64,000 nucleotides of DNA from GCA_000165345.1 CM000432.1:832001-896000, one strand, 5' to 3'. Numbered from the stretch's first letter, positions 19,624 through 24,775 are shown. Translations and numbers: made by a program. The notes: generated from the letters alone by a model not told the origin.

Positions 19624-20346
19624 ATGGTTTCATTAAGATTGTTATTCATTATAGCTCTAACAGCTTTAATTCAAAATGTCAGATCATCAAATATCATTTT
19701 GAATGAGAACTACACGAAGATTTCTGAAAAAGAGTCTATCATTGAAAGTTTGGAGATTATTAAAAGAGAGTACGATCAGGGCAAGAATTTGACTGATTTA
19801 ATCAAAGATCTTGAACATTCTGAAGAAAATAGGGAGCTTTTCGAGAATATGGATACTAATACAACTGAAATTATTTCAGATTCCTGGGATAAAATTGAAG
19901 CTGCTATGAAAAATACTACTGTCGTGACTCCAGTTGCTCCTTTTAACAGCTCCTCAATTGGAAGTTGTGTGAAACTTGCTTCAGATGTGAATATTGTCTT
20001 TGGTTCTCACAGAGATGAATTCCAAAATGCTGTTGCAAAATGCTCCAGGAAAGCTCTTGGGAGCTATAAGAATACATTTAGGTGTATTTCAAAGCTTAGT
20101 TTTGATGGTTTAAAATTATCAGCTCAATGTAATGATTGCTGGGCAAAAACTGCTCATTGTGGAGTTAAGCACTGTGCCTCCCAGTGCTTGTTTAACACAT
20201 GTGTTGCTAAGTGTCAGAAATGTTCAATTAGAGAATGTTCCAAACAGCTTAACGAATGTGCAGGGACTACATGGATGCCTTTACCTTGCGCTCTAGATCC
20301 TCACAAACCAATCCCTGATCATTTTAAAGCAAATGACCCCAAGTAA
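19624..20346 (+). CDS. Small secreted Cys-rich protein of 240 aa. It is a stand-alone copy of the C-terminal Cys-rich module of the downstream Kazal gene.
   Basis: Signal peptide MVSLRLLFIIALTALIQNVRS. C-terminal segment CNDCWAKTAHCGVKHCASQCLFNTCVAKCQKCSIRECSKQLNECAGTTWMPLPCALDP aligns with the Kazal-gene tail [58 protein letters not shown]. Confidence 0.6.
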   Translation: MVSLRLLFIIALTALIQNVRSSNIILNENYTKISEKESIIESLEIIKREYDQGKNLTDLIKDLEHSEENRELFENMDTNTTEIISDSWDKIEAAMKNTTVVTPVAPFNSSSIGSCVKLASDVNIVFGSHRDEFQNAVAKCSRKALGSYKNTFRCISKLSFDGLKLSAQCNDCWAKTAHCGVKHCASQCLFNTCVAKCQKCSIRECSKQLNECAGTTWMPLPCALDPHKPIPDHFKANDPK

Positions 20347-20883
20347 ACTTTCATTTGACAACATAAAGGCAATTACAAGGGGGATAATAATCGTGTAATA
20401 TTCTTCCTCTCAATCTTCTTATTATGCTCCTTTCTTTTTTCAGGATGAGAAGATAATATCTACCCTAATTTCTATGTTTGTTAAATACATATCTCGATCA
20501 TTCTCATTTAAGGAAAGAGAAACAATTGTCTATAGATAGAGTATTTTTCTTTTAGATCGTTTTAATTAGGATTTTTACAATTATTTAGAGTCTTTACAAA
20601 ATCTTTATCTAGTTTTTAATGTGATTTTGTCATAAAAATTGATGACTAATATTTTTTCCCTAAGTTAAACAATGACTTGTTTTTCACTCTAAATTAATCA
20701 GTTTTATCCCAAGTTAATTATATAGATTTATTATTATCAAGTGAGTAAATAAAAAGGAAGAAGTGTGAAAAAAAAATCTTTACAATTATCAATAAAGTCA
20801 TCCCCTACATATGTTAATTCTCTCCATTACTCTTTTCTTCACTCGTTTAAAATTATAAATTATACTCGGCATAAGCGCCACAA

Positions 20884-20902
20884 TTTGCGCGCCTTTACCG
20901 GT
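20884..20902. promoter_or_regulatory. TTTGCGCGCCTTT E2F-like site abutting ACCGGT
   Basis: It lies about 190 nt upstream of the Kazal gene start. Confidence 0.35.
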
Positions 20903-21085
20903 ACTGATTAATATATAACATAAATATAGGCAATTAATTAAATAAATTAGAGGCAAGGCAAAAAAAAATCTTAAATTAAATAATACAATTAAAAAATGAC
21001 CGGGTTAGAGGATAAACGTAAAAGTATAACTTAAACAATTCGGTCGTTAATCAGTAAAGTAATTCTTTTACATAATTATTAAAAT

Positions 21086-24000
21086 ATGGAGAGAATTGTT
21101 TTTTCTAACTTAATTTTTGCCATTTTGGCTGGGTATCTCATTAGTTTGTCAGCATGTGCTGAGAAATTCAAGTATAATTATACTTTAGGCAATATTACTG
21201 TTAACAGTACAAGTCCAGTATATATTTTCCCAGCTAGTTCTTCAAAAAGAACTACTACTACTACTGCAGAATTAACAGGAGTTGGTGATAGTATTCCTCC
21301 ATTAGGTCCATTTGATAGAACTAGAGGTCCAGGTTGTAAAACTCCATTTGTTACTTTTGATTTAAAGCTAATTTGTGGTTCTGATGGAAACACATATGAT
21401 AATGTTTCTATTTTCAGAAATGCTCAGTGCGATGATGAAAATCTTGAATTCAAACATTGGGGAAGATGCAAAGGAACTCTAAGTTCACTTAAGGGCCGTG
21501 AACAACTCATCTCCAAACGTCCATATTTGCCACAAGGTATTGTCCCATCTCCAATTTCCACTACCACTACTACCACCACTGCCACTACTACTACTACTAC
21601 CACTACTACCACTACTACCACTGCAGTGCCAATAGTTGACTTCCAGGAAGGTTCTCCATTAGGTCCATTTGATAGAGTTAGAGGTCCAGATTGCAAAACT
21701 CCATTCGTTACAGCAGATTATAGACCAATATGTGGCTCTGATGGAAAAACTTACTCGAATGTCGCACTTTTCAGAAACGCTCAATGCGATGATGAGAATT
21801 TGGAATTCGTCCACTGGGGAGAATGTCCCACACAAGTTAAGCCAGAAGAATCAACAGAAAGACCTCCATTGGGTCCATTTGACAGAGTCAGAGGTCCAAA
21901 TTGTAAAACTCCATTTGTCACTTTGGATCTTGACCCAATTTGTGGTTCTGATGGAAAAACCTATGACAATACTTCAGTATTTAGAAATGCTCAGTGTGAT
22001 GATAAGAATTTGAACTTTGCTCACTGGGGAGAATGTCTCACACAAATTAAGCCAGAAGAACCAATAGAAAGGCCTCCATTAGGTCCATTCGATAGAATTA
22101 GAGGTCCAGACTGTGTCACTCCTTATGTAACTTATGAATTAAACTTGATTTGTGGCTCAGATGGAAAGACTTATTCAAATATCTCGGGCTTCAGAAATGC
22201 TCAATGTGAAGATGAAAATCTTGAATTCAAACATTGGGGAGAATGTACTTTAGAAGAATCTCAAGCTAATAAAAAGAAGAGAGAAGATTTGGGAAGCTTG
22301 GATAGACCAAGAGGTCCAAAATGTAAACAAGATTGTCCAAAGTTCTATGATCCAATCTGTTCAAGTACTGGTACTGTTTATGCAAATGAATGCTACTTCA
22401 GAAATGCTCAGTGTGATGATGAAAAGCTTGGATTCCTCCATTGGGGAGTTTGTAATAGTAATGATGCTGACAAGATTAATGGAATCATCTTTATCGCAGA
22501 ATCTGGTCCTTTTGAATTGGAACCATTGGGTCCATTTGATAGAGTTAGAGGTCCAGACTGTAAGACAGTCTTTGTTGATTTCAAATACTATCCAATTTGT
22601 GGTACTAACGGAAAGACTTACGAAAATGTTTCCCATTTCAGAAATGCTCAATGCGATGATGAAAATCTTGAATTCAGATACTGGGGAGTCTGTTTTGAAG
22701 GTTATGAGGAATACTTTGGGAATTTGATTCCATTAGGTCCTTTTGACAGAGTTAGAGGCCCAGGTTGTAAGACACCTTGTACTAGGGAGTATAACCCAGT
22801 CTGTGGATCAAATAGAGTGACATATTCAAATCCGTGCGAATTCAGAAACGCACAATGTGATAATGTGAATCTTCAATTCCTCCATTGGGGAGAATGCAGC
22901 AAGAGTATATGTAACAAGCCAGCTCAACCATCTCAGGCTCCAGTTGGAATTGAGAAACGTACCTTTGATGCAGATCAAGCACGTGAACCTTTGGGTCCTT
23001 TTGACAGAGTTAGAGGTCCAGGATGCAGAACTCCATGCACTAGAGAGTTTGACCCAGTATGTGGGACAGACGGTACTACTTATCCAAATCCATGTGAATT
23101 CAGAAATGCTCAGTGCGATAACTCAAATCTCGAATTTGCTTATTTCGGAGAATGTAGTGGTGAGCCTGAACAACATAAGGATTTAAGTCCAGTTGGTGAG
23201 ATAAACTCTGAGTTTTATAGATATAACTATGTTCTCTATAGAATCAGAGGGCCTGATTGTAAGAAGCCATGCAGTAGTTTAGATTCACCAGTTTACGGTA
23301 GTGATGGAAAGGAGTACAAAAATATTTGCTATTTATTAAATGCAATGTGTGATGATTCTACCTTGGAGCATTACATGGCCAGAGTTTACGATAGTGAAGA
23401 AGATCAGAAGAATCCTCCAAAAGTAATTAAGGCAGATTTAGGTCCATTTGATAGGAAAAGAGGTCCAAATTGTAAACAAGAATGTTCTAAATATTACAAT
23501 CCAGTTTGCTCAAGTACTGGTACCATTTATGCAAATGATTGCTACTTCAGAAATGCTCAATGCGATGATGAGAAACTTAAATTCCTCCACTGGGGAGTTT
23601 GTGACAGTAATGATGCTGATAAAATCACGGCAATCATATTTACCAAGGATTCTGGTCCATTTGAGACACTTCCATTGGGTCCATTTGACAGAGTCAGAGG
23701 TCCAGACTGTGTCACTCCATTTGTGACAATGGATTATAGACCAATATGTGGTTCTGATGGAAAAACTTACACAAATATCTCCCACTTTAGAAATTCTCAA
23801 TGTGAAGATCCAAACCTCGAATTTGTTCATTGGGGTAAATGTCTCACCACTGAAGAAAATGTTGAATCTCCCAATGTTGATGTTGGTGGTAGAGGTCTCC
23901 CAGGTCCTTTAGATCGTGAAAGAGGTCCAAATTGCAAAACTCCATGTACAAGAGAATACCGTCCAATTTGTGGAAACGATGGGGTGACTTATGGCAATCC

Positions 24001-24775
24001 ATGTACATTTAAGAATGCTCAATGCGATGATGAGGGACTGACTGCCTTACATTTTGGAAAGTGTAATGATGATGATGTTCATTTAATTACAACCACAACA
24101 ACAAAAATTCCAGGAACAGCTTGTTCAACAAAACCAACAACAAGTGAAATGGCCAGGGGAAACTTAAGAAGCACAAAAGGAACAGATGAAGAAGAAGATG
24201 ATGGTTCTTTACCAACAAGTACTACTACTAAGACCATATCAGAAAGCTATCCAAAATCAGATGAAAAGGATGAAAAAGAAGAGCACTTTATGAGCTTAAT
24301 GGAAGTTCTTTCCAAAACCTCATTTAGTACTCCAGAACCAACAATAACAAGAGAAAGTACTGGTAACTGTTTAAATCCAACAGATTTGGAAATTTTGTTT
24401 GGTGAAACTAGCGTATTTTTCCAGAATTTGGTGATCGTTTGTGGAAGATCATCCCTTGGAAATGGAGGTAAGACAGCCAAGTGTATACAAAACAGATCTT
24501 TTGGTCCAAAAGAACTCAGGATCTCAGACCAATGTGTTTCGTGCTACAAGGAATCAGCAACTTGTGGTAGTAAGAAATGTAAATCTGCCTGTCTCACTTC
24601 TACTTGTAATACAAAATGCCAGAAATGCTTTGAGAAGAATTGTGCTAGCAATCTTAAAGAGTGTGTCGGTACCAGTTGGTTACCAAAACCATGCGGACTT
24701 GATCCATTTTCTGAAACTCCAGAAGGATGGAAAGTTCCAGATCCAAAACAAAGTGATGTTGCTCCACCCAAATAA
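21086..24775 (+). CDS. Secreted multi-domain Kazal-type serine protease inhibitor with about 12 Kazal-like domains, poly-Thr mucin-like linkers and a C-terminal Cys-rich module
   Basis: Twelve iterations of [15 protein letters not shown](C)[12 protein letters not shown](C)[17 protein letters not shown]. The canonical six-Cys copies match the ovomucoid-type CTxEYxPxCGSD signature. Signal peptide [20 protein letters not shown]. Confidence 0.8.
21556..21625 (+). repeat. (ACY)n tract encoding poly-Thr, a mucin-like linker
   Basis: The tract encodes TTTTTTTATTTTTTTTTTTTT. Confidence 0.7.
22311..23708 (+). repeat. Internal segmental duplication in the Kazal gene. Domains 5-6 (22311..22560) and domains 10-11 (23459..23708) are about 85% identical copies, offset by about 1148 nt.
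   Basis: Both copies encode RGP[KN]CKQ[DE]C...ICSSTGT[VI]YAN[ED][27 protein letters not shown]...GPFE...[13 protein letters not shown]. Confidence 0.65.

What the first reader, a model, noticed from the sequence alone, without database searches (positions are those of the whole stretch)
19624..24775. Cys-rich C-terminal module of the Kazal protein also exists as a free-standing secreted gene upstream
The last ~110 aa of the Kazal protein (C-x2-C...C-x4-C-x3-C...C-x3-C-x2-C...EC-GT-W-P-PC-LDP) align residue by residue with the C-terminal half of the 240 aa secreted protein at 19624..20346. That includes the preceding block FGxxxxxFQN...C. This looks like domain shuffling or capture between neighbouring genes. 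I do not recognise the module itself.
Basis: seen in the sequence. Interest (0 to 1): 0.6.

Follow-up and report, generated by a model that had tools for sequence, protein, structure and literature searches.

The report
Unnamed cysteine-rich domain in tandem paralogues
Two neighbouring secreted-protein genes of Cryptosporidium end in the same 14-cysteine helical domain because they are ancient tandem duplicates; the domain belongs to a large family with no Pfam model or solved structure, and the Kazal protease-inhibitor array was probably added to one copy only in the intestinal species.

Summary
ORF A (19624-20346, 240 aa) and the C-terminus of the 12-Kazal ORF B (21086-24775, 1229 aa) align at E=9e-35. 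All 14 Cys are in register. The score lies 17.6 SD above shuffles that keep the Cys fixed.

- Not a recent capture: syntenic loci in eight Cryptosporidium lineages and a module tree show that A and B are whole-gene tandem paralogues older than the genus radiation.
- Kazal distribution: in all three gastric species sampled (C. muris, C. andersoni, C. serpentis) B is 380 aa with the module and no Kazal. In all six intestinal-type lineages sampled B carries Kazal repeats. Parsimony therefore favours the module-bearing gene gaining the Kazal array.
- Not Cryptosporidium-specific: a profile search finds 562 cluster representatives, including Plasmodium, coccidia, chromerids, colpodellids, Perkinsus and some bacteria.
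- No known family: there is no Pfam or PDB-sequence match. A confident AlphaFold model (pLDDT 94) is a five-helix bundle with no convincing solved analogue.

Function is inferred, not shown. The module is probably a stable binding or anchoring domain. Five canonical Kazal heads have Arg/Lys at P1, which suggests protection against trypsin-like gut proteases.

The parts
19624..20346 (+). Gene A, probably cgd4_3540: a 240 aa secreted protein with the module at its C-terminus
   Evidence: ORF. It is 97% identical to C. hominis CHM_4g3540. That matches the published 0.971 identity for cgd4_3540/CHUDEA4_3540, dN/dS 0.23.
19624..19689 (+). Predicted signal peptide of A (MVSLRLLFIIALTALIQNVRSS)
   Evidence: Read directly from the sequence. 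No signal-peptide predictor was available.
19855..20343 (+). Region of A homologous to B (aa 78-240): Cryptosporidium-specific pre-module plus the Cys module
   Evidence: BLASTP HSP, E=9e-35. Module profile hit at 2e-89.
19966..20289 (+). 14-Cys core of the module in A (C115...C222)
   Evidence: Cys positions. The AF2 model of aa 105-240 has pLDDT 94 and pTM 0.87, with five helices. A profile built only from non-Cryptosporidium members hits it at E=3.4e-22.
21086..24775 (+). Gene B, probably cgd4_3550: 1229 aa with signal peptide, leader, 12 Kazal repeats with a Thr-run mucin stretch, an acidic/Thr linker, and the module
   Evidence: ORF. Pfam Kazal_1/Kazal_2 with 12 stretches, E=2e-81. The published identity for cgd4_3550 against C. 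hominis is 0.881, dN/dS 0.26.
21086..21157 (+). Predicted signal peptide of B ([24 protein letters not shown])
   Evidence: Read directly from the sequence.
21287..24079 (+). Kazal array K01-K12. K05, K07, K08, K10 and K12 are canonical six-Cys domains. K01-04, K06 and K11 are four-Cys variants. K09 is degenerate.
   Evidence: Repeat alignment and coordinates; Pfam. The residue two after Cys2 (the classical Kazal P1 position) is K, R, R, K, R in the five canonical domains. The reactive-site assignment comes from established Kazal knowledge, not from a test here.
21557..21625 (+). Thr-run mucin-like stretch ([23 protein letters not shown]) between K01 and K02
24218..24748 (+). Region of B homologous to A (aa 1045-1221): pre-module plus module
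   Evidence: This is the only part of B that matches the 380 aa B orthologues of the gastric species.
24368..24694 (+). 14-Cys core of the module in B (C1095...C1203)
   Evidence: The non-Cryptosporidium profile hits it at E=5.8e-20.

Best explanation
Genes A and B are tandem paralogues that arose before the Cryptosporidium radiation.

The shared module. Each gene ends in one copy of a ~110-130 aa extracellular domain. In this genus it is preceded by a ~35 aa pre-module. The domain has a conserved framework of 12 Cys, plus a co-occurring extra pair found in apicomplexans, chromerids and a colpodellid. It is predicted with high confidence to be a five-helix bundle, presumably stapled by seven disulfides. 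It belongs to a large family with no Pfam model and no solved structure. Most members are small secreted proteins of about 210 aa with the domain at the extreme C-terminus. Others carry tandem arrays separated by Thr-rich mucin linkers.

The Kazal array. B acquired a 7-12-unit Kazal array with mucin stretches on its N-terminal side in the intestinal Cryptosporidium lineage. The gastric species keep a 380 aa Kazal-free B.

How it probably works (inferred). The family conserves only Cys, Gly, one Asp and a few hydrophobic positions. That fits a protease-resistant structural or binding domain, not an enzyme. It would fix its variable N-terminal cargo to a common partner on the parasite surface or in a secreted matrix. 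In B the cargo is a multi-headed serine-protease inhibitor with five canonical heads carrying Arg/Lys at P1. This would place trypsin-directed protection where the module binds, which is useful in the small intestine but not in the pepsin-dominated stomach.

Shown: homology, synteny, the age of the duplication, the lineage distribution of the Kazal array, the breadth of the family, and the absence of any known family or solved fold.
Inferred: disulfide bonding, direction of the Kazal event (gain), binding/anchoring role, protease specificity, and the niche-adaptation link.

The confidence of 0.7 applies to the evolutionary and structural account. The specific anchoring and anti-trypsin role alone is about 0.35-0.4.
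For: - Homology beyond Cys spacing.
- Conserved order (large minus-strand gene, A, B, downstream gene): C. andersoni, C. muris, C. serpentis, C. ryanae, C. felis, C. ubiquitum. A partial contig of an unnamed species shows the same start.
- Gastric B is 380 aa with the module at 226-380. A tblastn of the Kazal array finds nothing in those 17-21 kb loci. It hits only the C. ryanae and C. felis loci of that run; the C. ubiquitum and unnamed-species loci, fetched later, show Kazal repeats by motif and direct reading.
- Tree: A clade 98%, B clade 72%, gastric and intestinal subclades 98-100% inside both.
- Family breadth: 562 representatives at E<=1e-3 and 57 at E<=1e-10 among 1.84e9 proteins.
- Named members: Plasmodium yoelii and P. 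berghei, Hepatocystis, Cystoisospora, Neospora, Vitrella, Chromera, Voromonas, Alphamonas, Perkinsus, a Ca. Binatia MAG, and an FCB-group protein with a T9SS tail.
- An independent profile built from 53 non-Cryptosporidium domains finds only the two window modules, at 3e-22 and 6e-20.
- No Pfam hit for the window proteins or for any of 62 diverse members. No PDB sequence hit.
- Cys framework and the co-occurring extra pair (r=0.8); C-terminal placement in 123 of 148 proteins; median length 210 aa.
- Kazal anatomy and P1 residues.
- Purifying selection on both genes, dN/dS 0.23 and 0.26.
- A Kazal inhibitor protects Toxoplasma against gut serine proteases, according to the title and abstract of PMC12147184.
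Against: - No experimental or expression data for either gene could be retrieved. Searches of the text and supplements of several Cryptosporidium omics papers found only identity and dN/dS values and a mention of an antisense lncRNA.
- Gain versus loss of the Kazal array rests on parsimony. There are only two deep Cryptosporidium clades and no syntenic outgroup.
- The B clade has only 72% bootstrap support, and the tree is neighbour-joining on 135 columns.
- Homology of the short N-terminal leader between Kazal-bearing and Kazal-free B was not supported: it scored below shuffles. The mode of acquisition (internal insertion or fusion with an inserted Kazal gene) is therefore open.
- I could not test whether gastric species carry Kazal proteins elsewhere in their genomes. 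The one search that might have shown this was swamped by metazoan agrin-like proteins.
- The AlphaFold-database fold library was unavailable.
Confidence: 0.7

Rival explanations
1. Recent domain capture or gene conversion between neighbours: the Kazal gene picked up the C-terminal module from the adjacent small gene, or the small gene is a recently split-off fragment of the Kazal gene.
For: The genes are adjacent, on the same strand, 739 bp apart, and the module is at the C-terminus in both. The mosaic architecture of B is real.
Against: - The modules are only about 43% identical within this genome.
- Each groups with its orthologues in other species, not with its neighbour.
- The pair exists in gastric species where B has no Kazal at all.
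Confidence: 0.05
2. Ancestral B already carried the Kazal array, and the gastric lineage (C. muris, C. andersoni, C. serpentis) lost it and replaced it with a ~200 aa acidic low-complexity region.
For: With only two deep clades, the distribution alone is symmetric between one gain and one loss on the B branch. Loss of serine-protease inhibitors would also make sense in a stomach niche.
Against: - It needs two events, a gain on the B stem and then a loss, against one.
- Paralogue A lacks Kazal in every species examined, and none was seen in the 148 retrieved relatives outside the genus.
- No Kazal relic is detectable in gastric B or in its flanks.
Confidence: 0.2
3. The module is a divergent TNFR-type cysteine-rich domain, as UniProt's automatic names for the C. 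canis, Vitrella and Chromera members suggest.
For: UniRef names 'TNFR-Cys domain-containing protein'.
Against: - No Pfam hit of any kind for the window proteins, including TNFR_c6, even at E<=1, and none for 62 members at E<=0.01.
- The PS00652-type pattern, written from memory, does not match the window proteins or the UniRef-labelled members, and matches 1 of 164 family proteins.
- The confident model is all-helical, whereas TNFR CRDs are elongated and strand-based.
Confidence: 0.03
4. The module is a small-ligand or lipid carrier of the disulfide-rich helical kind (it would work like saposins, nsLTPs or oomycete elicitins), not an anchoring domain. The Kazal array would then protect or accompany a scavenging function.
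For: It is a compact helical bundle with many disulfides, found mostly in small secreted proteins. Cryptosporidium is a scavenger with a reduced metabolism (general knowledge).
Against: - Frequent tandem arrays with mucin linkers, and a T9SS-tailed bacterial member, look more like surface or matrix proteins.
- Cavity analysis was not possible.
Confidence: 0.12
5. The similarity is a chance match of low-complexity Cys spacing.
For: Both regions are Cys-rich.
Against: - z=17.6 against Cys-fixed shuffles, and E=9e-35.
- About 40 invariant non-Cys and Cys columns across orthologues of both paralogues.
- The Kazal repeats, which are also Cys-rich, are not hit by the module profile.
Confidence: 0.01

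Closest known systems
Multi-domain Kazal serine-protease inhibitors of gut-dwelling or host-surface parasites (Toxoplasma TgPI-type inhibitors; oomycete EPI1/EPI10 with atypical two-disulfide Kazal domains)
   Same: Secreted, with tandem Kazal domains that mix canonical six-Cys and reduced-Cys variants. The canonical domains have basic P1 residues. The presumed role is protection from host digestive serine proteases (title and abstract of PMC12147184 for Toxoplasma; oomycete EPI from my own knowledge).
   Different: B carries 12 domains plus mucin runs, and it ends in an unrelated 14-Cys helical module that those inhibitors are not known to carry (from my own knowledge, not checked here). The array is restricted to the intestinal Cryptosporidium lineage at this locus.
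TNFR/NGFR cysteine-rich domain (the automatic UniProt label on some family members)
   Same: An extracellular Cys-dense module of roughly comparable Cys density.
   Different: No Pfam or pattern match. The predicted fold is helical, not the TNFR ladder. There is no structural hit.
Disulfide-rich all-helical extracellular domains (saposin-like, nsLTP/prolamin, elicitin, GFR-alpha/GDNF-receptor domains, spidroin terminal domains)
Bacterial cysteine-rich acidic repeats (TIGR02232 myxo_disulf_rpt / DUF4215)
   Same: They co-occur with the module in the Ca. Binatia protein P0042. Both are Cys-rich extracellular repeats of bacteria.
   Different: They match a different segment of P0042 (944-976). 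The unit is 38 aa and is not homologous to the ~110 aa module.

Membership tests
Kazal-type inhibitor domain (N-terminal array of B) | Significant match to Pfam Kazal_1/Kazal_2 | tested here: met
   PF07648 at E=2.4e-81 and PF00050 at E=7.4e-77, 12 stretches each.
Kazal-type inhibitor domain (N-terminal array of B) | Six-Cys framework C1-C5, C2-C4, C3-C6 | tested here: inconclusive
   Five of 12 repeats have all six Cys. Six repeats lack the C2/C4 pair, and K09 lacks C3 and C6. Disulfide pairing itself was not testable.
Kazal-type inhibitor domain (N-terminal array of B) | Functional reactive-site loop (P1 two residues after Cys2) and actual protease inhibition | not testable with these tools
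   P1 is K, R, R, K, R in the canonical repeats by position. Inhibition needs biochemistry.
TNFR/NGFR cysteine-rich domain | Match to the Pfam TNFR_c6 profile or the PROSITE signature | tested here: not met
   No Pfam family for the window proteins at E<=1. None for 62 members at E<=0.01. The PS00652-like regex, written from memory, does not match the window proteins or the UniRef-labelled members, and hits 1 of 164 family proteins.
TNFR/NGFR cysteine-rich domain | Elongated, strand-based disulfide ladder fold | tested here: not met
The unnamed 12/14-Cys helical module family delineated here | Alignment of all core Cys (profile positions 32, 57, 71, 86, 89, 96, 101, 105, 114, 117, 122, 129) plus the conserved Asp38 and Gly131 | tested here: met
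   Both window modules carry every core Cys plus the extra 110/139 pair. Alignment.
The unnamed 12/14-Cys helical module family delineated here | Detection by a profile that contains no Cryptosporidium sequence | tested here: met
   E=3.4e-22 for A and 5.8e-20 for B. Nothing else among the 811 six-frame pieces of the window was hit.
The unnamed 12/14-Cys helical module family delineated here | Secretory or extracellular context | tested here: met
   Hydrophobic N-terminal signal-like sequences in A and B. About 100 of 148 relatives pass a crude signal-peptide test. Mucin linkers are present, and one bacterial member has a T9SS tail. No dedicated predictor was run.
Tandem gene duplicates | Adjacent, same strand, homologous, with both copies orthologously conserved across species | tested here: met

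The most novel reading that the evidence does not exclude
The module is a previously undescribed, ancient extracellular fold shared by Myzozoa (apicomplexans, chrompodellids, perkinsids) and some bacteria. It acts as a common anchoring or recognition domain for secreted surface proteins. The intestinal Cryptosporidium lineage bolted a multi-headed trypsin-directed Kazal array onto one such anchor as a niche adaptation to pancreatic proteases, and this is a molecular marker of the gastric-to-intestinal split.
Probability: 0.3. Interest if true: 0.65.

Novelty: new variant of a known kind. Interest (0 to 1): 0.5.

Why it matters
- It replaces a vague "domain shuffling" note with a dated history: an old tandem duplication, then a lineage-restricted gain of a Kazal array.
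- It delineates a sizeable extracellular domain family (562 cluster representatives) that has no Pfam model and no solved structure. The family has conserved single-copy members in Plasmodium, coccidia and Cryptosporidium, so it is a candidate for a new Pfam entry and for structure determination.
- The clean dichotomy, Kazal present in all six intestinal-type lineages sampled and absent in all three gastric species, gives a testable hypothesis about how Cryptosporidium copes with host digestive proteases in different gut compartments.
- It nominates cgd4_3550 as a candidate surface-protective factor.
- It also shows that the automatic "TNFR-Cys" labels on family members are probably misleading.

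Tried and rejected
1. A word-indexed homologue search with the B C-terminus alone returned nothing, although homologues exist. This is a tool limitation, and the exhaustive profile search solved it.
2. The first AF2 model, from 11 Cryptosporidium-only sequences, was mediocre (pLDDT 66). It was replaced by a model from a 62-sequence alignment.
4. Homology between the N-terminal leaders of Kazal-bearing and Kazal-free B looked plausible by eye ('[10 protein letters not shown]' against 'LFVLIIPSS'). A leader HMM scored gastric B below 3000 shuffles, so I rejected it as evidence for an internal insertion.
5. The last homologue search, with full-length B, was meant to show whether gastric species have Kazal proteins elsewhere. 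Metazoan agrin-like proteins swamped it.
6. Literature: cgd4_3540/3550 appear only in lists of identity and dN/dS values and in a list of genes with antisense lncRNA. The hyperLOPIT paper (PMID 36958336) is not held. The supplements of three other papers had no entry or were not held. I could not map the Plasmodium or Neospora members to a studied gene.
7. The PROSITE TNFR pattern, written from memory, does not match the window proteins.
8. Rfam finds no RNA family in the window.

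
Full report
**Organism and genes.**
The window is AT-rich. ORF A is 97% identical to C. hominis CHM_4g3540. That equals the published C. parvum/C. hominis identity for cgd4_3540, 0.971 with dN/dS 0.23. The neighbour cgd4_3550 is listed at 0.881 with dN/dS 0.26 (supplement of PMC4637869). I therefore treat the window as Cryptosporidium chromosome 4, most likely C. parvum, with A = cgd4_3540 and B = cgd4_3550. This is an inference; no 100% match was retrieved.

**Checking the observation.**
- A (19624-20346, 240 aa) and B (21086-24775, 1229 aa) are intact + strand ORFs with hydrophobic N-termini.
- BLASTP gives a single strong HSP, A78-240 against B1045-1221: 38% identity, E=9e-35.
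- The Smith-Waterman score of the C-terminal parts is 306. Full shuffles give 35+-7. Shuffles that freeze every Cys give 74+-13, so z=17.6.
- All 14 Cys are in register, and only two loop lengths differ.
- The homology starts about 35 residues before the first Cys, so the shared unit is about 165-178 aa, not ~110.
- There is no third copy in the window.

**What the module is.**
- Pfam has no model for it, and neither does the PDB sequence set.
- A profile of the module, searched exhaustively against 1.84 billion cluster representatives, found 562 proteins at E<=1e-3 and 57 at E<=1e-10.
- Named members: Cryptosporidium spp.; Plasmodium yoelii and P. berghei ('conserved protein, unknown function', about 327 aa); Hepatocystis; Cystoisospora suis; Neospora caninum; Vitrella; Chromera; Voromonas; Alphamonas; and Perkinsus olseni, which has tandem modules separated by Thr-rich linkers. 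There are also many unnamed marine transcriptome and metagenome proteins.
- Bacterial members: a Ca. Binatia MAG protein, an FCB-group protein with a bona fide T9SS sorting tail (TIGR04183), and an 8-repeat protein on a 64 kb contig.
- Of 148 non-Cryptosporidium proteins retrieved, the median length is 210 aa. In 123 the domain ends within 25 residues of the C-terminus. About 100 pass a crude signal-peptide test.
- The family core is 12 Cys. A further pair (profile positions 110 and 139) co-occurs (r=0.8) in Cryptosporidium, Plasmodium, Hepatocystis, chromerids and Alphamonas, which gives the 14-Cys form seen here.
- Apart from Cys, only one Asp (92%), Gly residues and a few hydrophobic positions are conserved. 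That argues for a scaffold or binding domain, not an enzyme.
- None of 62 diverse members hits any Pfam family at E<=0.01.
- A profile built from the 53 non-Cryptosporidium domains alone recovers exactly the two window modules (E=3.4e-22 and 5.8e-20) and ignores the Cys-rich Kazal repeats.

**Structure.**
With the 62-sequence alignment, AlphaFold2 gives a confident model of A residues 105-240: pLDDT 94, pTM 0.87, five helices plus a short bridge. The Cryptosporidium-only alignment had given pLDDT 66.
- Foldseek against PDB and against BFVD gives best E=1.9.
- The AlphaFold-database library was not available.
- Coordinates could not be inspected, so disulfide pairing is inferred only from Cys co-occurrence.
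- UniProt's automatic 'TNFR-Cys' names on some members are not backed by profile, pattern or fold.

**History of the gene pair.**
I fetched the syntenic locus through the A orthologues. The order (large minus-strand gene, A, B, downstream gene) is conserved in C. andersoni, C. muris, C. serpentis, C. ryanae, C. felis and C. ubiquitum.
- In the three gastric species B is 380 aa, with the module at residues 226-380. A tblastn of the Kazal array finds nothing in those 17-21 kb loci.
- In the intestinal-type lineages B is long and carries Kazal repeats: C. ryanae 1280 aa, C. felis 1156 aa, C. ubiquitum 1094 aa, and 1229 aa in this window. In an unnamed species from SRR31860995 only the first 204 aa of B lie on the contig, and they already contain Kazal repeats. 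C. hominis TU502 has a 1299 aa Kazal-bearing B, found by protein search without its locus.
- A neighbour-joining tree of the modules (135 columns, 200 bootstraps) gives an A clade (98%) and a B clade (72%). Each contains a gastric subclade (100%) and an intestinal subclade (98-100%). Cryptosporidium is monophyletic at 72% against the Plasmodium, chromerid and colpodellid members.

The A/B duplication therefore predates the radiation of the genus, and the shared module is inherited, not captured. A lacks Kazal in every species examined. No Kazal was seen in the relatives retrieved outside the genus (10 were scanned against Pfam; for the rest this rests on length and architecture). One gain in the intestinal lineage is more parsimonious than a gain followed by a loss. 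The alternative, loss in the gastric lineage, cannot be excluded (I give it about 0.2). I looked for homology between the N-terminal leaders of long and short B, to decide between internal insertion and gene fusion. It was not significant.

**The Kazal array.**
The 12 repeats span 21287-24079 and average 53% pairwise identity.
- Five are canonical six-Cys domains: K05, K07, K08, K10, K12.
- Six are four-Cys variants that lack the C2/C4 pair.
- One, K09, is degenerate.

At the classical P1 position, two residues after Cys2 (established Kazal knowledge, not tested here), the canonical five have K, R, R, K, R. That predicts trypsin-type specificity. A Toxoplasma Kazal inhibitor has been reported to protect that parasite against gut serine proteases (title and abstract of PMC12147184). 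Together with the gastric/intestinal dichotomy, this suggests that the array adapts the parasite to pancreatic proteases. This is inference.

**How it most likely works.**
- Shown: two secreted paralogues share an ancient Cys-dense helical domain under purifying selection, and one of them has a lineage-specific N-terminal addition.
- Inferred (about 0.35-0.4 for the specific role): the module is a stable, protease-resistant binding or anchoring domain that positions a variable N-terminal cargo. The cargo is acidic or low-complexity in A and in gastric B, mucin-like in the Perkinsus and Ca. Binatia members, and Kazal plus mucin in intestinal B. In B this would concentrate a multi-headed trypsin inhibitor at the site the module recognises.
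- Rivals: a lipid or small-ligand carrier role (0.12), gastric loss instead of intestinal gain (0.2), recent capture or gene conversion (0.05), a TNFR-like CRD (0.03), and chance (0.01).

**Novelty and verdict.**
The genes are annotated, and B is known as a '12 Kazal repeats' mucin-like secreted protein. I found no description of the C-terminal domain, of its family, of the A/B paralogy, or of the gastric/intestinal difference. The result is a multi-Kazal secreted protein (a known kind) in an unusual combination with an uncharacterised, widely distributed domain. I rate it 'new variant of a known kind', interest 0.5.

Noticed in passing
window 13840-18576 (-): A 1578 aa secreted-looking protein (signal peptide, Ser/Thr-rich, 16 Cys clustered at 488-698 and 1377-1569) with no Pfam family. 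It is conserved in synteny directly upstream of the A/B pair in every Cryptosporidium locus fetched, at 40% identity to C. andersoni over its full length.
   Followed up: partly
window 44684-47632 (+) and 60706-63846 (+): Two long ORFs (982 and 1046 aa) dominated by Gly/Ser/Arg low-complexity runs (for example GGASGGASGG repeats), with no Pfam family. They account for the GC-rich, strongly GC-skewed stretches of the window (GC 0.38-0.45 against about 0.29 elsewhere).
   Followed up: partly
P0003 (orthologue of window 19624-20346 in another Cryptosporidium species): A 240 aa orthologue of gene A is named 'secreted with signal peptide and 12 KAZAL repeats and a mucin-like stretch of threonines' in NCBI/UniRef. 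The name evidently belongs to the neighbouring gene B and has been displaced.
   Followed up: no
window 23207-23404 (Kazal repeat K09): One of the 12 Kazal repeats is degenerate. It has lost Cys3 and Cys6 and the otherwise conserved PLGPFDR and HWGxC motifs, so it is probably a non-inhibitory spacer.
   Followed up: partly
P0042, P0059, P0074 (bacterial metagenome proteins): The module occurs in bacteria as 4-8 tandem, strongly acidic copies. One such protein has a T9SS sorting tail and another has myxococcal Cys-rich repeats. Whether this reflects ancient shared ancestry or transfer between protists and bacteria was not examined.
   Followed up: partly
window 21086-24775, compared with P0173: The C. 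hominis TU502 orthologue of B is 1299 aa against 1229 aa here, at 87% identity. This is a length difference of 70 residues, presumably in the Thr runs or repeat number. The gene is listed among fast-diverging putative surface mucins (PMC4637869) and is reported to have a positively correlated antisense lncRNA (PMC7840661).
   Followed up: no
window 19855-19965 and 24218-24367: A Cys-free 'pre-module' of about 35 aa (W/F-x2-[IL]-E-x2-[LM]-x-[NT]-T-x3-TP-x-P, with N-x-T sites) precedes the Cys domain in both paralogues of all Cryptosporidium species. It is absent from relatives outside the genus.
   Followed up: partly
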